The translations under genes were made by a program, and so were the position numbers. A stretch of DNA of 44,077 nucleotides from Shigella phage EP23. The stretch lies in the sequence record JN984867. One strand, given 5' to 3'. Below the pieces are notes generated by a model. That model was not told the origin of the DNA and did no database searches. It was given only the letters and a program-made list of their open reading frames with translations. Positions 6,439 through 42,513 of the stretch are shown one piece after another; positions within the stretch are counted from its first letter, which is position 1; every line of letters begins with the position of its first letter.

Positions 6439-6462
6439 TATCATTTCCTCGTTGTTGGTGTG

Positions 6463-6532
6463 CAACCAATATAATGCAACCAACATCTGCAATGCAAGCG
6501 AATTTTGCGATTATTTTTATCGCTGATAATAT
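6463..6532. promoter_or_regulatory. divergent promoter region: leftward TTGCAT-N18-TATATT (clamp-like gene) and rightward TTGCGA-N16-TAATAT (scaffold gene), with two TGCAACCAA motifs
   Basis: Hexamers read directly; shares an extended block (TGCAAG-C/T-GAATTTTGC) with the 24.9 kb promoter. Confidence 0.5.
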
Positions 6533-21950: not shown

Positions 21951-22031
21951 GTTATCATCTCCTGTATTGGGTTGAGTTTTAGTATTACACCGCTCAACCA
22001 AGAATGCAACCAATTTTATGAGGATTTAGCT

Positions 22032-24904: not shown

Positions 24905-24947
24905 ACTATAGTGCAACCAACCTATTGGTTGCAAGTGAATTTTGCAA
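24905..24947 (-). promoter_or_regulatory. leftward promoter TTGCAA-N18-TATAGT overlapping perfect inverted repeat TGCAACCAA-ccta-TTGGTTGCA (24912-24933)
   Basis: Hexamers and palindrome read directly on minus strand. Confidence 0.55.
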
Positions 24948-26524: not shown

Positions 26525-26565
26525 CGTGTTGTCTCCAGGTATTAAAAAGGGCGTCCAACCGGACA

Positions 26566-26610
26566 CCCTCAATATAATGCAACCAATATGCTTATGCAAC
26601 CAATTTACGC
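26566..26610 (-). promoter_or_regulatory. leftward promoter region with two TTGGTTGCA motifs (TTGCAT-N17-TATATT)
   Basis: Read on minus strand: ttggttgcataagcatattggttgcattatatt. Confidence 0.5.
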
Positions 26611-26922
26611 ATAAAAATTTGGGTCGCGCGCAACGTCTACCAAGTAAAGGTTACTAATGCGGTTGCCGTAGTGGCCAGGTGTGCGCTGACGGCACACTAC
26701 GGCATAGCCTGGAGGTATTGTATTGCCAGTCTCGATAATCCACGCCACGCGTGCGCCAGACAGCGTCTTGCCGTTGCACTCGATACGAGTACCGCCATCA
26801 GTAGTATTGAGGTTGCCAATCTTGCAGCCGGTGGATTTCAGACGGATGACTCCGGTTTTGCTGTCGTAGGTGAATAGCTGGTTAGTCATTGCGACCGAAA
26901 AATCGATTGGTTCGAATGTCAT
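26605..26922 (-). CDS. HNH-endonuclease-like protein with apparently substituted catalytic residues
   Basis: LFTYDSKTGVIRLK...GKTLSGARVAW...GNRISNLYLV follows the phage HNH_3-type pattern, but the expected His/Asp positions read A and C-R. Confidence 0.45.
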   Translation of the reverse strand: MTFEPIDFSVAMTNQLFTYDSKTGVIRLKSTGCKIGNLNTTDGGTRIECNGKTLSGARVAWIIETGNTIPPGYAVVCRQRTPGHYGNRISNLYLVDVARDPNFYA

Positions 26923-26923
26923 T

Positions 26924-28351
26924 TTAAATTTTCCTCGTTTTCTTAGCTTTCATGTATTCCATCAAGTCGTCCTGGATATCTCGCCTACTGTCGCGACGCT
27001 CGGCGACCAATTCGTCCAGTGTCCCGCGAGCCTGGATAATGTAGACGAATACTGGTCGAGGGTGTCCGGCTTGCATCTGGCGAACCGGCCCGATACGTTC
27101 AACGATCTGCGAAAAGTGCTCAAAGTTCCAGGTATCGGAGAAGATTGCCAGGTGATGTCCGCCGTCCTGCAAGTTAAGGCCGTGGCCTGCCGATGCCGGG
27201 TGTGCAAACATGATGGGGATCTCGCCCCTGTTCCACGCTTCCATATCCTTATTGCCCTGCTTACCCTTACCCAACGCGACGCCGTGCGGAAATTTCTTCT
27301 TAAGACGTGCCAGATCATGCTTGTACTGATACGCAACGAGCAACGGCGCGCCGTTCAACTCCTCCACGATACTTTCCAGCGCGTCCAGCTTCGCGTCGTG
27401 AATCTTCACCCACTCGTCGGTCCGTTCGCCGTCTTCGTCCACCTTATACACAGCGCCGGATGCAAGCTGAAGGCACTTAATTGTCTTCGCCGCGGCGTTC
27501 GCCGCTTCCACTGTTCCGCTTTCCAGTTCGGCAAATAGCTCGCTTTCAAACTGGTCATAAATCTTGCGGGCTTTCTTCGGCAGGTCCACAACAACCGGCG
27601 TATAGATTGGCTTGTCACACCCGAAGTATTCAGCCGCATCAACGGTTAGCGACACGTCGGACAGTCGTTGTTGTATTTCTTTCTCGGAGTTCTTAAGCGG
27701 GGCGTGCTGCATCGTGAAGCTGCCAGGCTTAACAGGCTTGCTAATAAACCAGCGGTCCGTGAACGCCTTATAGCTACTGCCGAGACGTTCGCCGCCGTCG
27801 ACAAACCACGTCTGACCCCATAGGTCTTTCAGCCCGTTCGGTGCGGGTGTGCCAGTCAGGTTAATCCAGCGCTTGACGTGCTTATGTGCGATCGCTGCCA
27901 GCGCACGGGCGCGCTTACTTCCCTGCTTGCTTCTATAGCCTTTCAGCTTAGTGGATTCATCGGCAACCACGACCGTAAAGGGCCACTCGTCGCCGCAATA
28001 CTCAACAAGCCACTCAACTACATCATAGTTAATACAAACCACGTTAGCGTCGCTCTCAAGCGCAGCGATGCGGTCCTTCTCTGGCCCAGTGCCGTCTACT
28101 ACCAGCAAGGCTGGGAAGCGCCATTTCTCCTGTTCCGGGGGCCATGTACCGGACGCAACGCGCAGCGGGGCCAGCACCAGTACGCGGTCATCCTGGTTGG
28201 ACAGGATGCCAGTCTGGAACATTTTATTCAGCGCCCACATGGTCGCGCCGGTTTTACCCGACCCCATTGTCGCCCATATATTGCATCGCTTATGCTTGAG
28301 GATGAACGCGGTTATCAACTTCTGATATTCGCGACGTCGGAAACGTGCCAT
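26924..28351 (-). CDS. SNF2/DEAD-like superfamily-2 helicase
   Basis: Walker A MGSGKTGAT, DExx-like VVADESTK; start taken at ATG 28351 (MARFRRR), track ORF runs to 28441. Confidence 0.7.
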   Translation of the reverse strand: MARFRRREYQKLITAFILKHKRCNIWATMGSGKTGATMWALNKMFQTGILSNQDDRVLVLAPLRVASGTWPPEQEKWRFPALLVVDGTGPEKDRIAALESDANVVCINYDVVEWLVEYCGDEWPFTVVVADESTKLKGYRSKQGSKRARALAAIAHKHVKRWINLTGTPAPNGLKDLWGQTWFVDGGERLGSSYKAFTDRWFISKPVKPGSFTMQHAPLKNSEKEIQQRLSDVSLTVDAAEYFGCDKPIYTPVVVDLPKKARKIYDQFESELFAELESGTVEAANAAAKTIKCLQLASGAVYKVDEDGERTDEWVKIHDAKLDALESIVEELNGAPLLVAYQYKHDLARLKKKFPHGVALGKGKQGNKDMEAWNRGEIPIMFAHPASAGHGLNLQDGGHHLAIFSDTWNFEHFSQIVERIGPVRQMQAGHPRPVFVYIIQARGTLDELVAERRDSRRDIQDDLMEYMKAKKTRKI

Positions 28352-28831: not shown

Positions 28832-29110
28832 CTATGCGACCAATTCAGCAACCAATAAATCGCAGTCGGATATGTTGTCGATAACGCGAACGTCAGCACC
28901 GCGGCGGGCCATTCGCTCATGTTCACGTACCTGGTGCGGCTTCGGTTTTCCTCCGGGGCGCTTCACTTCGACGAACACTATTTTGCCGTTGATGATAATA
29001 ATCAGGTCGGGCGCACCTGCGCGCCCCTCCCATGCCAGTTTTCGGCAGAATCCGCCAACATCTTTCACCCGTCTCATCAGGTGGCTTTGAATCTTGCCTT
29101 CTGGTGTCAT
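28832..29110 (-). CDS. VRR-NUC domain nuclease (PD-(D/E)XK)
   Basis: GAPDLIIIINGKIVFVEVKRPGGK core; start ATG 29110 overlapping polymerase stop. Confidence 0.55.
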   Translation of the reverse strand: MTPEGKIQSHLMRRVKDVGGFCRKLAWEGRAGAPDLIIIINGKIVFVEVKRPGGKPKPHQVREHERMARRGADVRVIDNISDCDLLVAELVA

Positions 29111-32100
29111 TACTTGCGGTAGCGATACATGCAATCGCCCTCTGCGGCAAGTGGGAAGCCTTTCGCCCAAACCGGCAGGTCGCACATCAGCGCGCACAAC
29201 TCCTCGGTTGTGTAGTCGTCGGTATCCGGCACTTCGGTTATCAGCTCATCGTGTACGGAAAGTACGATCTCATACCCCGCAGCTTCAACGCCAGGCATGG
29301 ACCATGCGAGAATATCGCGGCACAACGCCTGTACGATGTTTTCCGTCAGTTTGCCGCCGTAGGTATACTGGAATCCCCACTGGCGCGTCGTCTGATTCTC
29401 GCCCTGATATTTAATGCGTGTGCTGGTGCGCTTCTTGCCGGTGTCTTCGTCGATCTCGGTCGTGACAGACAGCGCGATGCCAGGGTAGCTCATGATGCGC
29501 CCTGACGGCAACTCAATTTTAAGCCACCACCCCGCCGCGTTCGGGTCGTCGCGCTCCTCGTCGAAGGTCGGGTCATGCTTCGCCTTCGTTCGAACAATTT
29601 TGAGCGCTTTCCTGCCATCCGGGCGAACGTTCGCGCCAGCCCAGTACGCTTTGCCCGGATTGCGGATCGCGCAGAGCACCGCGTCCTCCAGTTCGGCCCA
29701 AAAGGCTACCGTCATCGGGTGAGACTCACGCCACATACGTTTGATCGCGTCACACGTCAGCCACACGTTTTTCGGCAGTATGTAAGTTGGGCGCTCGTCT
29801 TTCTTGCCAGGCTTCGGCGGGCGCTTCTCCTCGTTAATGCGAGCGTACTCATAACCCCGCTTCGCCGCCGCCCAAATGTGATCCGGGAATGTGCCCTTCA
29901 TGACGTCAGCCATAGTGTAAAGGTCGAGGCCCAGGTTTTTAGCGAACTGCAAGAACGCCGCGACGCCGCCACCATAGCCCAGGCCAAGCTCGCAGTTATG
30001 CGCCACCAGAAAACCAGACTTAGACGCAATAAGGAACCGGTTTCCGTCTTCCACATCAATCAGGTCGTAAACCGGCTCGCAATAGGTTAACTTCCCGTTC
30101 CAGTTCAGCAATGCGGGTAAGGGCTTCATCGTACTTTCTCTGAAGCTCGGGCACGCTGCGCCGGTTACGGCAGTTTTCCGAACGGCTGACAAACCGAAGG
30201 TTTCCAGGCTCATAGTCGCCGTCTGTATCGATCCTGTCCATTTCGAAGTCTGGCTTATCCCAGCCGTCCAGCGTTTGAACGTAGAGAAGAAACGACCTTT
30301 TATCTCTCTTCCATTCGTCACATACGGCAATCCCACGACCGCCGTAGTTTTTATACCCTTTGGCGCGGGGGTTTGTCGTTCGTGATATTGCCGCTGACAG
30401 CCGGTTGAGTAGCCGCGTTCTGTGCGCATCGTCTGGCATTGCGTCATCGTAGCAAAAATACTGTTTACGATACCGCTTTGTCGCTTCAATTGCGCAGAGG
30501 TTGCATTGGGATGTTTTACCCCTTCGGACGTTGTCATACCCGACGCGTCCTGGCATCGCTCCGCAATCACATTGGGCCAGCAGTTGTCTGTGACCCTGTC
30601 GTTTTGGTAATTCGCGCAGGATAACCAGGCGTCCATACCTCTCGCCAGGGCGCGGACCATCGTGCACCTGTCTGAAACGAGTTGCCTTGCCTCCTTCCAT
30701 GAATGCGTCAAGATTTTGTGGTCTTCTGTCATCAAGACCCCGTCCACGTCTATCACTGGTTTCCACCCCATAAGGTGCGCGCCTTTTGTACTCACCCATT
30801 TTTCGCCGTTCCATACTTTATCCGTTGATGTTACGGCCATAATATCCTTGAACCCGCCATTGGTCAATACTTGGGTATGGCGGTGCAAGCAAGCCTTACC
30901 GATCTGGCGTAAGTCCTTGCGGTTGGCTTTAATGTAATCCGGGTCAAGGCCGAACATCTTACCGGCAGTCTCGCAATAGATATCGCGACCGGCCTTAAAG
31001 ACCATTAACGCTGTTTTCTCGCCAGCGATCCAGGCAAGTCCACGCCCTTCCACATTGGAGTAGTCCGCTACGACAAACTTCTTGCCCTTCGCCGGAATAA
31101 TGCACCCGCGAACGGTCGAGGCCGTTAGCTTCGATATGTCATACGCCCAGTGTGCGGTCCCGCGTAACAGGGAGTTGATGCCGTTGGTGAGCATGTGCGA
31201 CCGGACCCAAAACGAGACGTCGCTTTCACCCTCGCGGCGTTTAATCTTCCCTTCGTGGTCGTCGCTGTACTCGCCACGCGCCAGGTTTTGAGGCTGGAAG
31301 CCTTTGCCCGCCCAGCGCAGCGTGCGCTTTGCGCCGCCATACTGAAGACACCCACGGCGGCGACCATCTGCGGATAAGCCGTTAACTAGCGGATTGTACT
31401 TAGTCGATGCCGTTGATGACGCCCCGAGGCGCATTTCGATAAGCGCTTTGCCTTCGTCGGGGAAGTCCGGGTCTTCAAGCAGGTCGTTAAGCGTGGATTT
31501 CTGCGCGTTGTGGATCGTGAACGCCGGGGCGATATCACGCAGGATTGGCAGGAAGTCATTGCCTGTCAGCTTACCGCCAAATCGCTCCCAGGCTTCTTCC
31601 TTCAATTCTTCCTTATGCGCCTGCACCGCTTTGATCGCGGCGTTCGCCAGGTCAACGTCGACGTAGAAGCCGCGGTCGTTAATCAACTGGTCGATGAGCA
31701 GGATTTCATCTTCCTTAGGCGAGTTTCCCCAGTCCGGTATGCGCCAGTAGACTTCACGCATTGCGATAATATCCAGCGCGGCATAGCGCAGAAATTTGGC
31801 CCATTCTTCCGGGTGAGTCTCGCGAGTGTAGCGGCGGATTTTGTAGGTCTTAGGGGTAGGCTTACAGAATCGGTTAATCAGCGCCTTGCCTGCCTTATCC
31901 TTCGCGTGCTCTGCGTCAACGCCCAGAACCTGGCACTGCATATCGAGGCTACCGGGCAGCGCGTGGCGAAAGGCCATAATCATAGTGTCTTCGATCTGGC
32001 TTACCGGCAGGTCAATACCCCACTTCTCGCGGATAACCAGGCGGTCAAACAGGAGGCCGTTAGCCATCACTATTTTAGCCTTCTTGCGGGATACCCGGCG

Positions 32101-32298
32101 GAGCGCCTTGCGCAGTTCACGCGGCATTGTGGGGGATTCAGTGGCATCCCATGTCTGCACGCGGCCCTCGTCTATGGCGTAGGTGCAAATCATAATCTCT
32201 GTGGTTGGGTGCTCCGCGTAGGCGTACGCCCCAACTTTCTTCAGGTCCACCCCGCTAAATGTCTCGGTGTCGAGAAACAGGCGTTCGAAGTCTTTCAT
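29110..32298 (-). CDS. family A DNA polymerase with 3'-5' exonuclease domain, interrupted by an intein in motif B
   Basis: Exo motif FLDTETFSG, motif A ADYSNVEGR, motif C LSVHDEL; motif B split as RQIGKA / intein / CELGLGYGG. Confidence 0.9.
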   Translation of the reverse strand: MKDFERLFLDTETFSGVDLKKVGAYAYAEHPTTEIMICTYAIDEGRVQTWDATESPTMPRELRKALRRVSRKKAKIVMANGLLFDRLVIREKWGIDLPVSQIEDTMIMAFRHALPGSLDMQCQVLGVDAEHAKDKAGKALINRFCKPTPKTYKIRRYTRETHPEEWAKFLRYAALDIIAMREVYWRIPDWGNSPKEDEILLIDQLINDRGFYVDVDLANAAIKAVQAHKEELKEEAWERFGGKLTGNDFLPILRDIAPAFTIHNAQKSTLNDLLEDPDFPDEGKALIEMRLGASSTASTKYNPLVNGLSADGRRRGCLQYGGAKRTLRWAGKGFQPQNLARGEYSDDHEGKIKRREGESDVSFWVRSHMLTNGINSLLRGTAHWAYDISKLTASTVRGCIIPAKGKKFVVADYSNVEGRGLAWIAGEKTALMVFKAGRDIYCETAGKMFGLDPDYIKANRKDLRQIGKACLHRHTQVLTNGGFKDIMAVTSTDKVWNGEKWVSTKGAHLMGWKPVIDVDGVLMTEDHKILTHSWKEARQLVSDRCTMVRALARGMDAWLSCANYQNDRVTDNCWPNVIAERCQDASGMTTSEGVKHPNATSAQLKRQSGIVNSIFATMTQCQTMRTERGYSTGCQRQYHERQTPAPKGIKTTAVVGLPYVTNGREIKGRFFSTFKRWTAGISQTSKWTGSIQTATMSLETFGLSAVRKTAVTGAACPSFRESTMKPLPALLNWNGKLTYCEPVYDLIDVEDGNRFLIASKSGFLVAHNCELGLGYGGGVAAFLQFAKNLGLDLYTMADVMKGTFPDHIWAAAKRGYEYARINEEKRPPKPGKKDERPTYILPKNVWLTCDAIKRMWRESHPMTVAFWAELEDAVLCAIRNPGKAYWAGANVRPDGRKALKIVRTKAKHDPTFDEERDDPNAAGWWLKIELPSGRIMSYPGIALSVTTEIDEDTGKKRTSTRIKYQGENQTTRQWGFQYTYGGKLTENIVQALCRDILAWSMPGVEAAGYEIVLSVHDELITEVPDTDDYTTEELCALMCDLPVWAKGFPLAAEGDCMYRYRK
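29995..30891 (-). mobile_element. intein (299 aa) in DNA polymerase motif B
   Basis: Insert starts with Cys (codon 30889-30891), ends ...LVAHN followed by Cys (+1); Hint-like blocks CLHRHTQVLTNGG, TEDHKIL, VYDLIDVEDGNRFLIASKSGFLVAHN; excision restores R-x3-K-x3-LG-x2-YG. Confidence 0.8.
30056..30814 (-). CDS. HNH homing endonuclease encoded in an alternative frame inside the intein
   Basis: YGRLVIL...CDCG...RGKTSQCNLC and GYKNYGGRGIAVCDEW...DRIDTDGDYEPGNLRFVSRSENCRNR match phage HNH/His-Me finger proteins; frame differs from polymerase (30814 mod 3 = 1 vs 32298 mod 3 = 0); true start may be an internal Met (~30700). Confidence 0.7.
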   Translation of the reverse strand: MERRKMGEYKRRAPYGVETSDRRGRGLDDRRPQNLDAFMEGGKATRFRQVHDGPRPGERYGRLVILRELPKRQGHRQLLAQCDCGAMPGRVGYDNVRRGKTSQCNLCAIEATKRYRKQYFCYDDAMPDDAHRTRLLNRLSAAISRTTNPRAKGYKNYGGRGIAVCDEWKRDKRSFLLYVQTLDGWDKPDFEMDRIDTDGDYEPGNLRFVSRSENCRNRRSVPELQRKYDEALTRIAELEREVNLLRAGLRPD

Positions 32299-36274: not shown

Positions 36275-36303
36275 ATATTAGATTGGTTGCAGAAGGGAGT
36301 CAA
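36275..36303 (-). promoter_or_regulatory. leftward promoter TTGACT-N17-TAATAT with TGCAACCAA in the spacer
   Basis: Read on minus strand: TTGACTcccttctgcaaccaatcTAATAT; ~190-nt leader before ATG 36081. Confidence 0.55.
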
Positions 36304-39484: not shown

Positions 39485-39535
39485 ATATTGGTTGCATTCA
39501 TGCCAGCACCCTGCTAGATTGGTTGCACACCAACA
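39485..39535 (+). promoter_or_regulatory. rightward promoter region with two TTGGTTGCA motifs
   Basis: attaatattggttgcattc...agattggttgcacacc upstream of gene at 39549. Confidence 0.4.
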
Positions 39536-39884: not shown

Positions 39885-40154
39885 ATGACCCGTAGACGCG
39901 CAAAACAGCTTTCGTGGCATATCCCCCTGCATTGCATACGAATATGGGCTAAGAATGCGAATGCGGGGGACTCTGTGTACTGGTGCTATCGCGACGACGT
40001 TAAGCCGTTGACGCAGACTCGCTACTTGCACCAGTTCGCCGCGCAACATGATTTCTATGTGCGGACCTCCTTGCAACCAATGGGGATCCGTATTACATTA
40101 CGCCGGAAGCCCGCAGTCGAGCGGGTAGGCAAACACTGGAGACTGAGCAAATGA
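39885..40154 (+). CDS. hypothetical protein
   Basis: 89 aa ORF. Confidence 0.4.
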   Translation: MTRRRAKQLSWHIPLHCIRIWAKNANAGDSVYWCYRDDVKPLTQTRYLHQFAAQHDFYVRTSLQPMGIRITLRRKPAVERVGKHWRLSK

Positions 40155-42483: not shown

Positions 42484-42513
42484 TTGACTTGCAACCAACA
42501 TAGACTCTATACT
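42484..42513 (+). promoter_or_regulatory. promoter TTGACT-N18-TATACT with TGCAACCAA in spacer
   Basis: Read directly; followed by 26-codon micro-ORF (42543-42623) and gene at 42685. Confidence 0.55.

What the first reader, a model, noticed from the sequence alone, without database searches (positions are those of the whole stretch)
26605..26922. HNH-like protein with apparently substituted catalytic residues
The 105-aa protein follows the phage HNH pattern (LFTYDSKTGVIRLK ... GKTLSGARVAWII ... GNRISNLYLV) but where the His-Me finger normally has HR...DH...N the sequence reads AR...CR...H. It may be a domesticated, inactive endonuclease used as a DNA-binding protein. It lies in a different part of the early region from the intein-embedded HNH.
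Basis: partly seen in the sequence, partly recalled or inferred. Interest (0 to 1): 0.4.

Follow-up and report, generated by a model that had tools for sequence, protein, structure and literature searches.

The report
Dead, truncated HNH nuclease kept by phage
This small phage gene, labelled "HNH endonuclease" in more than 150 related genomes, descends from a homing nuclease but has lost its cutting residues and its usual DNA-binding tail, yet is conserved as tightly as the helicase next to it, so it probably has a non-cutting job, most likely DNA binding.

Summary
The ORF is real: 26605-26922 on the minus strand, 105 aa. The window is a Dhillonvirus (HK578-like coliphage).

The protein is a true homologue of I-HmuI-type HNH_3/HNH-AP2 phage endonucleases:
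- profile-profile probability 98.9%
- PHROG_99 E=2.8e-16

It is below Pfam's HNH_3 threshold. Mapped onto I-HmuI, the metal-ligand Asp74 and general-base His75 are Val76-Cys77, and His56 is Ala57. The motif helix is not predicted and the AP2 domain is missing. The structural Asn residues remain (N87, N91).

Its register is off by one (VC, not CR), and the claimed N-to-H change is wrong.

The gene is not decaying. It is present in about 156 Dhillonvirus records. It sits after the SNF2 helicase in three diverged lineages (37-40% identity), all lacking Asp-His. Its dN/dS is 0.04, equal to the helicase.

Best reading: a domesticated, catalytically dead endonuclease remnant that works by binding, probably to DNA through its retained beta-sheet. 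DNA binding is inferred, not shown.

A 9-mer, TTGGTTGCA, is strongly over-represented in phages that carry the gene. It is a candidate target but untested.

Interest is modest: a new variant of a known kind.

The parts
26605..26922 (-). CDS of the 105-aa gp31-like protein (orthologue of Sodalis phage SO-1 gp31 and Oekolampad bas18_0035), a degenerate, truncated HNH_3/I-HmuI-like protein
   Evidence: ORF. PHROG_99 E=2.8e-16. hhalign probability 98.9% against active HNH-AP2 proteins. AF2 pLDDT 90. I-HmuI is the best PDB match. dN/dS 0.042.
26692..26697 (-). Codons V76-C77, at the positions of the metal-ligand Asp and general-base His (I-HmuI D74-H75)
   Evidence: In the column table, 67/69 active relatives have D and 69/69 have H. 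The subfamily has V/T/R at the first position and C (7/8) or P at the second. hhalign. I-HmuI numbering. Role of H75 from PMC3384342.
26752..26754 (-). Codon A57, replacing the family-invariant His of the 'HR' dipeptide (I-HmuI H56)
   Evidence: 69/69 active relatives have H. The subfamily has A/P/L.
26647..26664 (-). Codons N87-L92 (NRISNL): the retained structural Asn, Arg and Asn-Leu of the HNH_3 motif (I-HmuI N83, N87)
   Evidence: N87, N91 and L92 fall in columns that are 69/69 conserved in active relatives.
26671..26679 (-). Codons P82-G83-H84: a subfamily-specific 2-residue insertion plus the subfamily-invariant His84, in the loop between beta-1 and beta-2
   Evidence: Gap in 69/69 active sequences. 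H84 is invariant in 8/8. It aligns with an R/K column in the active family.
26932..26936 (-). Shine-Dalgarno GAGGA, 10 nt upstream of the ATG, lying within the last codons of the helicase gene
   Evidence: Sequence read directly. The same SD sits at the dcm 3' end in relatives.
26924..28348 (-). SNF2-family helicase gene immediately upstream. Its stop codon is 1 nt before the gp31-like ATG. It is the conserved syntenic neighbour.
   Evidence: Pfam SNF2-rel_dom E=4.6e-11. Synteny in Oekolampad, eiAU and metagenomic contig L004.
26544..26570 (-). Intrinsic-terminator-like hairpin (10-bp stem, GGUU loop, U run) that closes the helicase/gp31-like transcription unit
   Evidence: RNA fold -17.9 kcal/mol, z=-4.0. 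Annotated as a terminator at the same place in PTXU06 and WF5505.
26577..26604 (-). Two copies of ATTGGTTGCAT directly after the stop codon, forming a TTGCAT-N17-TATATT promoter-like site. Candidate regulatory site; its link to the protein is untested.
   Evidence: The pair sits 5 and 22 nt after the stop in nearly all Dhillonvirus loci examined.

Best explanation
The gene encodes a catalytically dead, C-terminally truncated descendant of a free-standing HNH-AP2 (I-HmuI-like, Pfam HNH_3) homing endonuclease.

Origin and retention:
- The ancestral endonuclease gene settled just downstream of the SNF2-family helicase, in an ancestor of Dhillonvirus, Eiauvirus and a related uncultured phage.
- It lost the Asp-His catalytic pair, the metal-binding helix and the AP2 DNA-binding domain.
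- It has since been kept as a core gene of the replication/DNA-modification module.
- It is translated as the last gene of the helicase operon.

What remains is the N-terminal antiparallel beta-sheet, one helix and the beta-hairpin of the old active site.

Most likely mechanism (inferred): it binds DNA without cutting. It would use the beta-sheet surface that reads the major groove in I-HmuI, plus conserved basic residues (R27, K52, R58, H84, R88). In this respect it would resemble the Smad MH1 domain, a degraded homing endonuclease. Its role would be regulatory or protective during early/middle infection.

Shown: homology, loss of the catalytic residues, truncation, fold, purifying selection, synteny.
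Inferred: DNA binding, target and biological role.
For: Homology and fold:
- PHROG_99 E=2.8e-16.
- hhalign probability 98.9%, E=1.4e-17 against 68 active HNH-AP2 proteins.
- AF2 model pLDDT 90, pTM 0.82.

Loss of catalysis:
- D to V76, H to C77 and H to A57, against 67-69 of 69 active relatives.
- Mapped to I-HmuI D74/H75/H56. H75 is the general base (PMC3384342).
- No helix is predicted after beta-2.
- No AP2 domain, although most of the closest relatives carry PF00847.

Retention:
- About 156 Dhillonvirus records at 81-97% aa identity, plus Edwardsiella eiAU-type phages at 40%.
- Always follows the SNF2 helicase, with at most one gene between.
- dN/dS is 0.042, against 0.040 for helicase, 0.081 for Dam and 0.19 for the downstream gene.
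- The unique dcm deletion in this window kept the gene, its SD and its ATG intact.

DNA-binding hints:
- The beta-sheet reads the major groove in I-HmuI (PMC3384342).
- The eiAU homologue has a NUMOD-like motif (E=3e-4) and the L004 homologue has an HTH-like tail (E=0.04). Both are sub-threshold.
- Other proteins carry a degenerate module in front of an active HNH module or an AP2 domain (P0013, P0014, P0017, P0018).
- pI is 8.9.
Against: - No experiment or direct computation shows DNA binding.
- The AP2 domain, the main specificity module of the parent family, is gone.
- The protein is only mildly basic.
- The SSL-2009a orthologue is frameshifted after residue ~72. Either the C-terminal third is dispensable there, or the record has a sequencing error.
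- Subfamily-invariant His84 and near-invariant Cys77 lie near the former active site. They have no explanation in a pure DNA-binding model.
- Conserved adjacency to the helicase would fit a protein-protein role equally well.
Confidence: 0.55

Rival explanations
1. Protein-binding accessory factor. The dead HNH scaffold acts through protein-protein contacts, for example as a subunit or regulator of the adjacent SNF2-family helicase, or of a host factor. It does not bind DNA specifically.
For: - Immediate adjacency to the SNF2 helicase is the one context feature conserved in all three lineages, while the methyltransferases come and go.
- The stop and start codons are 1 nt apart in this window.
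- The AP2 DNA-binding domain is lost.
- dN/dS is identical to that of the helicase.
Against: - Helicase orthologues at 65% identity in Jerseyvirus and Kagunavirus function without this protein.
- The retained part is exactly the DNA-contacting half of I-HmuI (PMC3384342).
- The homologues gained DNA-binding-like motifs, not protein-interaction motifs.
Confidence: 0.2
2. Still a nuclease, using a non-canonical active site. Cys77, His84 and Asn102 (or a partner protein) would replace the lost Asp-His.
For: - His84 is invariant in 8/8 and Cys77 is present in 7/8 subfamily members, close to the old active site.
- N102 can be aligned with the metal-binding Asn in Dhillonviruses.
- Some His-Me nucleases use a different residue, for example Tyr in R.PacI (PMC3384342, PMC5714182).
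Against: - The metal-ligand Asp is Val/Thr/Arg.
- N102 is not conserved in the three diverged homologues (D/I/D).
- No helix is predicted to present a metal ligand.
- His84 falls in a column that is Arg/Lys in active enzymes, so it looks like a phosphate contact rather than a base.
- I know of no His-Me nuclease that uses Cys as the general base (own knowledge).
Confidence: 0.07
3. Partner of the phage Dcm C5-cytosine methyltransferase. In nearly all Dhillonviruses the gene overlaps the dcm stop codon by 4 nt, recalling dcm-vsr in E. coli. It could target or modulate methylation, or handle its consequences.
For: - A 4-nt overlap with dcm in relatives.
- About 155 phage records carry this Dcm at >=80% identity, and all 14 IMG/VR Dhillonvirus loci have it between the helicase and this gene.
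- eiAU has a methyltransferase right after the homologue.
Against: - This window has lost dcm yet keeps an intact gene with an unchanged degenerate-motif region (VVCRQRTPGHYGNR).
- The L004 phage has the homologue with no methyltransferase nearby.
- There is no homology to Vsr or other repair nucleases.
Confidence: 0.06
4. Functionless decaying remnant of a homing endonuclease gene.
For: - Catalytic residues and the C-terminal domains are lost.
- The same position in the Jerseyvirus celemicas holds a 59-aa HNH-AP2 remnant.
- SSL-2009a is frameshifted.
- PTXU06 carries a truncated extra copy.
Against: - dN/dS is 0.04 with dS about 0.5.
- The reading frame is intact in about 156 genomes.
- The protein is retained at 37-40% identity across genera at the same position.
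- The AF2 fold is confident.
Confidence: 0.03

Closest known systems
I-HmuI (PDB 1U3E) and the Pfam HNH_3 / His-Me finger group 2 homing endonucleases
   Same: - Retained R58, W61, G66, P70, N87, R88, N91 and L92 of the family signature.
   Different: - I-HmuI D74/H75 are V76/C77, and H56 is A57.
- The motif helix carrying N96 is not predicted.
- There is no C-terminal DNA-binding region.
- Below the Pfam threshold.
- Not sporadically distributed like a mobile endonuclease gene. It is a fixed core gene.
Free-standing phage HNH-AP2 endonucleases (e.g. Xanthomonas phage Xp10 3R = P0130; SETP3 gp37)
   Same: The closest sequence relatives. They share the 'YD..TG' N-terminal motif and the overall module.
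   Different: - They are about 160-190 aa with intact HR...DH...N...N and an AP2 domain.
- The window protein is 105 aa, lacks all of these, lacks a 7-residue hairpin extension and has a 2-residue loop insertion.
Smad MH1 and NFI DNA-binding domains (degraded His-Me finger homing endonucleases; Grishin 2001, cited in PMC5714182 and PMC3384342)
   Same: - A His-Me finger scaffold that lost the catalytic His but is kept for a non-catalytic function.
- MH1 keeps the beta-hairpin DNA-binding surface seen in I-HmuI.
   Different: - No detectable sequence homology.
- Eukaryotic, and zinc-stabilised. No conserved 4-ligand site exists here.
- DNA binding by the phage protein is not demonstrated.
Degenerate HNH_3 modules fused to an active module or to AP2 (P0013, P0017, P0018; P0014)
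   Same: The same kind of Asp-His-less module, found by exhaustive HMMER among the 15 significant hits. This shows that inactivation recurs in this family and that the dead module is tolerated as an accessory.
   Different: Those modules sit in cis with an active nuclease or an AP2 domain. The window protein stands alone, and the window encodes no active paralogue of the same architecture.
I-TevI acting as transcriptional autorepressor (recalled from memory: Edgell et al. 2004, not checked here)
   Same: A precedent for a phage homing endonuclease scaffold doing regulatory DNA binding without cleavage.
   Different: I-TevI is a GIY-YIG enzyme that remains catalytically competent. It has no structural relation to this protein.

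Membership tests
Pfam HNH_3 (PF13392) / I-HmuI-like His-Me finger endonucleases | Score above the curated family threshold | tested here: not met
   13.8 bits against a gathering cut-off of 24.8, residues 58-75 only. Homology is nevertheless secure by profile-profile comparison and PHROG_99.
Pfam HNH_3 (PF13392) / I-HmuI-like His-Me finger endonucleases | General-base His at the end of beta-1 (I-HmuI H75) | tested here: not met
   Cys77. 69/69 active relatives have His, 0/8 in the subfamily.
Pfam HNH_3 (PF13392) / I-HmuI-like His-Me finger endonucleases | Metal-ligand Asp preceding the His (I-HmuI D74) | tested here: not met
   Val76. 67/69 active relatives have Asp. The subfamily has V/T/R.
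Pfam HNH_3 (PF13392) / I-HmuI-like His-Me finger endonucleases | Metal-ligand Asn at the start of the motif helix (I-HmuI N96), and the helix itself | tested here: inconclusive
   N102 aligns only with a 2-residue gap, and it is D/I/D in the three diverged homologues. AF2 predicts coil after residue 96, and the protein ends at residue 105.
Pfam HNH_3 (PF13392) / I-HmuI-like His-Me finger endonucleases | Structural Asn and Asn-Leu of the hairpin (I-HmuI N83, N87-L88) | tested here: met
   N87, N91 and L92 are present.
Pfam HNH_3 (PF13392) / I-HmuI-like His-Me finger endonucleases | N-terminal antiparallel beta-sheet packed on the beta-hairpin | tested here: met
   AF2 strands at 17-19, 26-28, 44-49, 52-55, 73-77 and 92-96. 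Superposes on I-HmuI over 88 residues.
Pfam HNH_3 (PF13392) / I-HmuI-like His-Me finger endonucleases | Endonuclease activity | not testable with these tools
   Needs a biochemical assay.
Free-standing HNH-AP2 homing endonuclease genes | C-terminal AP2 (PF00847) or NUMOD/HTH DNA-binding module | tested here: not met
   The protein ends at residue 105 and no such domain is detected. The relatives carry it.
Free-standing HNH-AP2 homing endonuclease genes | Sporadic, mobile distribution among closely related genomes | tested here: not met
   Present at the same position in about 156 Dhillonvirus records, in eiAU-type phages and in contig L004.
Degraded His-Me finger DNA-binding domains (Smad MH1-like, functional analogy only) | Fold retained with the catalytic His lost | tested here: met
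Degraded His-Me finger DNA-binding domains (Smad MH1-like, functional analogy only) | Sequence-specific DNA binding through the beta-sheet/hairpin | not testable with these tools
   Inferred only from I-HmuI (PMC3384342).
Terminase-associated phage HNH proteins (HK97 gp74-like) | Intact HNH motif and a gene next to the terminase/cos region | tested here: not met
   The motif is degenerate. The gene lies in the replication module, and in Oekolampad the terminase genes are about 25 kb away at the start of the record.

The most novel reading that the evidence does not exclude
The dead HNH remnant is the dedicated reader of the TTGGTTGCA element.
- The 9-mer occurs 12 times in this window and 14 times in Edwardsiella phage eiAU, about 30-fold over chance. 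It occurs zero times in the Jerseyvirus SETP3, which lacks the gene.
- It sits in -35 and -10/+1 positions of promoter-like sites in front of non-structural operons. It also clusters next to the primase-helicase gene.
- A pair lies directly after the gene's own stop codon.

On this reading, a homing endonuclease has been converted into a phage transcription (or origin) regulator.
Probability: 0.15. Interest if true: 0.6.

Novelty: new variant of a known kind. Interest (0 to 1): 0.33.

Why it matters
- **Annotation.** More than 150 deposited Dhillonvirus genomes call this gene a "putative HNH/homing endonuclease". The evidence says it cannot cut by the HNH mechanism and is not mobile, so those annotations mislead.
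- **Biology.** It is a clean prokaryotic-virus example of a homing endonuclease scaffold that was stripped of catalysis and of its AP2 domain, yet kept under selection as strong as a replication helicase. It parallels the Smad MH1 story on a much shorter timescale.
- **Next step.** It gives a concrete candidate to test as the missing regulator of Dhillonvirus early/middle promoters. No transcription factor is annotated for these phages.

Tried and rejected
- AF2 with the shallow 5-sequence alignment gave pLDDT 42 and was discarded. It was redone with 77 sequences.
- phmmer against PDB sequences gave only a chance GFP hit.
- NCBIfam gave no hit.
- The afdb50 fold library was unavailable. BFVD returned only other HNH proteins and the orthologues.
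- The word-indexed protein search and the IMG/VR scan found no lineages beyond Dhillonvirus and eiAU. Exhaustive HMMER added only P0006 and P0008 as stand-alone degenerate relatives.
- I looked for an active HNH-AP2 paralogue in the window that the dead copy might partner with or inhibit. There is none.
- I considered whether it replaces the VRR-NUC nuclease that often accompanies this helicase. I rejected this because, in the related Jerseyviruses examined, the VRR-NUC gene is a separate gene upstream of the helicase.
- I considered a structural Zn site built from Cys/His. I rejected this because only C77 and H84 are conserved.
- Literature: no paper discusses this gene. The Dhillonvirus trigger of Retron-Eco7 is an unnamed protein of unknown function and could not be identified because no supplement is held. 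Other Dhillonvirus/HNH and Dhillonvirus/Dcm hits were irrelevant.

Full report
**1. What is there**

The minus strand carries an ATG-started ORF at 26605-26922. It encodes 105 aa: MTFEPIDFSVAMTNQLFTYDSKTGVIRLKSTGCKIGNLNTTDGGTRIECNGKTLSGARVAWIIETGNTIPPGYAVVCRQRTPGHYGNRISNLYLVDVARDPNFYA.

- A GAGGA Shine-Dalgarno lies 10 nt upstream of the ATG. The ATG follows the stop codon of a 474-aa SNF2-family helicase by one nucleotide.
- After the stop codon come two copies of ATTGGTTGCAT, and then a strong hairpin with a U run (-17.9 kcal/mol, z=-4.0). Two relatives annotate that hairpin as a terminator.
- The gene is therefore the last cistron of the helicase transcription unit.

The window is a Dhillonvirus, an HK578-like coliphage. 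The 2.5 kb around the gene matches 159 phage records, the best at 93.7% (EK99P-1). Orthologues are annotated variously as "putative HNH endonuclease", "putative homing endonuclease" or "hypothetical protein".

**2. Is it HNH-like, and which residues are replaced?**

Pfam HNH_3 gives only a sub-threshold partial hit (E=0.048, 13.8 bits against a cut-off of 24.8, residues 58-75). Homology is nevertheless secure:
- PHROG_99 "HNH endonuclease": E=2.8e-16 over residues 8-97.
- A profile of the 8 subfamily sequences aligns to a profile of 68 active HNH-AP2 proteins with probability 98.9%, E=1.4e-17.
- An AlphaFold2 model built on a 77-sequence alignment is confident (pLDDT 90, pTM 0.82).

Column-by-column comparison with 69 active relatives, and with I-HmuI through the family profile, gives this map:

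| I-HmuI residue | Window residue | Active relatives | Note |
|---|---|---|---|
| H56 | A57 | 69/69 His | lost |
| R57 | R58 | 68/69 Arg | kept |
| D74 | V76 | 67/69 Asp | lost |
| H75 | C77 | 69/69 His | lost |
| N83 | N87 | 69/69 Asn | kept |
| N87-L88 | N91-L92 | 69/69 | kept |
| R89 | Y93 | 68/69 Arg | changed |
| N96 | possibly N102 | 68/69 Asn | needs a 2-residue gap; D/I/D in the three diverged homologues |
| N99 | A105, the last residue | 69/69 Asn | lost |

H75 is the general base of I-HmuI. The Asn at the start of the motif helix holds the metal ion (PMC3384342).

AF2 predicts beta-strands at 73-77 and 92-96, which form the old hairpin, and no helix after them.

The subfamily also differs from the active family in four ways:
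- it lacks a 7-residue hairpin extension;
- it has Gly44 where 67/69 active proteins have Tyr;
- it has a 2-residue insertion next to an invariant His84;
- it lacks the AP2 domain, which many of the nearest relatives carry.

The register is V76-C77 rather than C77-R78, and the "N replaced by H" statement is incorrect.

**3. Is it a decaying remnant?**

No.
- tblastn finds the protein in 156 Dhillonvirus records at 81-97% identity. That is the same number that carry the helicase at >=90% identity.
- It is also found in 4 Edwardsiella eiAU-type phages at 40% identity.
- Exhaustive HMMER over 1.8 billion representatives adds only two more stand-alone degenerate relatives, P0006 and P0008. IMG/VR adds nothing new.
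- In eiAU and on the P0008 contig the gene again lies just downstream of the SNF2 helicase, with at most one small gene between.
- All 8 sequences lack Asp-His, so inactivation predates the split of these lineages.
- Nei-Gojobori dN/dS between the window and 18 Dhillonviruses has a median of 0.042 at dS about 0.5. The comparisons are helicase 0.040, Dam 0.081 and the downstream gp30-like gene 0.19.
- The stretch VVCRQRTPGHYGNR, which carries the substitutions, is invariant within the genus.

Exceptions:
- a C-terminal frameshift in the old SSL-2009a record;
- a truncated extra copy in PTXU06.

**4. Origin**

The nearest active relatives are 160-190-aa free-standing HNH-AP2 endonucleases.
- In the Jerseyvirus celemicas, whose helicase is 65% identical, the slot right after the helicase holds a 59-aa fusion of the N-terminal YDPETG motif to an AP2 domain, with the nuclease core deleted.
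- SETP3 has a full active HNH-AP2 gene elsewhere in the module.

The region is evidently a landing site for such elements. The Dhillonvirus/Eiauvirus protein is the one remnant that became fixed.

Among the 15 significant hits of the exhaustive search:
- several proteins carry an Asp-His-less module in front of an active one (P0013, P0017, P0018);
- one carries it in front of an AP2-like tail (P0014).

Inactivation of this module is therefore recurrent, and the dead module is used as an accessory.

**5. How it probably works**

*Shown:* homologous scaffold, catalytic pair gone, helix and AP2 gone, strong constraint, fixed position.

*Inferred:* it acts by binding. The retained part corresponds to the half of I-HmuI whose small antiparallel beta-sheet makes base contacts in the major groove (PMC3384342). 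Smad MH1 is the textbook case of a His-Me finger that "completely devolved" its catalytic region but kept that DNA-binding surface (PMC3384342, PMC5714182).

Weak support for DNA binding:
- conserved basic residues (R27, K52, R58, H84, R88) and a pI of 8.9;
- a sub-threshold NUMOD-like motif in the eiAU protein and an HTH-like tail in P0008.

I put DNA binding at roughly one in two. The main rival is a protein-protein role with the helicase.

- A Dcm-accessory role is unlikely. This window has cleanly lost dcm while keeping the gene and its ribosome-binding site.
- A non-canonical nuclease (Cys77/His84) cannot be excluded, but it lacks a metal site.

**6. A possible target (untested)**

ATTGGTTGCAT occurs 11 times in the window with at most one mismatch, against 0.87 expected. 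For the 9-mer TTGGTTGCA the counts are:

| Genome | Carries the gene? | Occurrences | Expected by chance |
|---|---|---|---|
| This window | yes | 12 | 0.45 |
| eiAU | yes | 14 | 0.35 |
| SETP3 | no | 0 | 0.27 |
| L004 | yes | 8 within one mismatch (0 exact) | 2.8 |

- In L004, one of the one-mismatch sites lies 18 nt after the homologue's stop codon.
- The sites form TTGCAT-N17-TATATT/TAGATT promoter-like arrangements in front of non-structural operons. They also cluster beside the primase-helicase gene.
- In nearly all Dhillonvirus loci examined, a pair sits 5 and 22 nt after this gene's stop.
- No transcription regulator is annotated in the well-curated relative Oekolampad.

The co-occurrence is confounded by phylogeny. 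I therefore rate the link at about 15%.

**7. Novelty and verdict**

The concept of a degraded His-Me finger kept for binding is known. No paper in the library discusses this gene.

The finding is a new variant of a known kind: a stand-alone, truncated, catalytically dead HNH_3 derivative fixed as a core phage gene and widely mis-annotated as an endonuclease. Interest is modest (0.33).

Noticed in passing
window 6460-6484(-), 22004-22014(-), 24912-24934(both strands), 26577-26604(-), 28834-28844(-), 36282-36292(+), 39487-39528(+), 40071-40081(-), 42490-42498(-); L019 (eiAU) 14 sites: The 9-mer TTGGTTGCA (11-mer ATTGGTTGCAT) is about 30-fold over-represented. It occurs 12 times in the window and 14 times in Edwardsiella phage eiAU, and 0 times in the Jerseyvirus SETP3. 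The sites make TTGCAT-N17-TATATT-like promoters, a palindrome at 24912-24933, and a shared 18-mer ATTGGTTGCACACCAACA just upstream of two ribosome-binding sites. It looks like a phage-specific promoter, operator or iteron family whose reader is unknown.
   Followed up: partly
window 26920-26940 (junction between helicase stop and gp31-like start): This phage lacks the ~700-bp Dcm-like C5-cytosine methyltransferase gene. That gene lies between the helicase and this gene in all other Dhillonvirus loci examined, and ~155 phage records carry this Dcm at >=80% identity. The junction keeps the dcm 3' end (ACGAGGAAAATTTAAAATG) fused to the helicase 3' end, so it is a derived, clean deletion. The helicase C-terminus is altered to ...KAKKTRKI. 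A paper in the library notes that phage Dcm can trigger retron Eco1 (PMC12916289), a possible selective reason that I did not test.
   Followed up: partly
window 29110-32298(-), insert about 29995-30891; overlapping ORF 30056-30814(-): - The DNA polymerase I ORF is 1062 aa, against 763 aa in Oekolampad.
- A 299-aa in-frame insert has intein ends (GKA|CLHRHTQV... ...FLVAHN|CELG).
- The only endonuclease-like sequence (zinc-ribbon CxC...CxxC, then ...FEMDRIDTDGDYEPGNLRFVSRSEN, with Arg where HNH has His) is read in a different frame, as a 252-aa ORF nested inside the intein.
- The in-frame middle of the intein looks like out-of-frame sequence.
- There are no Pfam hits for either frame.
   Followed up: partly
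L017 (Salmonella phage celemicas) 3919-4095: Directly after the orthologous helicase there is a 59-aa ORF annotated as HNH endonuclease. It is the N-terminal YDPETGIFTW motif fused straight to an AP2 domain, so the whole nuclease core has been deleted. It is a different decay product of the same kind of element at the same genomic slot.
   Followed up: partly
L010 (phage PTXU06) 745-2818: The region is duplicated: dcm, then a 67-aa truncated copy of the gp31-like gene, then a second 696-bp gene, then the full gp31-like gene. This suggests recombination between methyltransferase cassettes using the gp31-like sequence as homology.
   Followed up: no
P0005 (phage SSL-2009a orthologue): The C-terminal third is frameshifted after about residue 72, giving a 111-aa product without the degenerate HNH hairpin. 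This is either a sequencing error in an old record or a natural truncation.
   Followed up: no
window 26544-26604(-): A promoter-like site (TTGCAT-N17-TATATT) lies immediately upstream of the terminator hairpin. Transcripts started there would begin inside the 5' arm of the stem and could escape termination. It is a compact terminator/promoter overlap between the helicase unit and the next gene.
   Followed up: no
P0007 (eiAU-type homologue) residues 38-57; P0008 (L004 3112-3594) residues 120-147: The diverged homologues carry extra segments that weakly resemble DNA-binding motifs. One is an I-HmuI NUMOD-like motif (E=3e-4) in the N-terminal extension of the eiAU protein. The other is an HTH_23/HTH_3-like motif (E=0.04-0.1) in the C-terminal extension of P0008. 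Both are below Pfam thresholds.
   Followed up: partly
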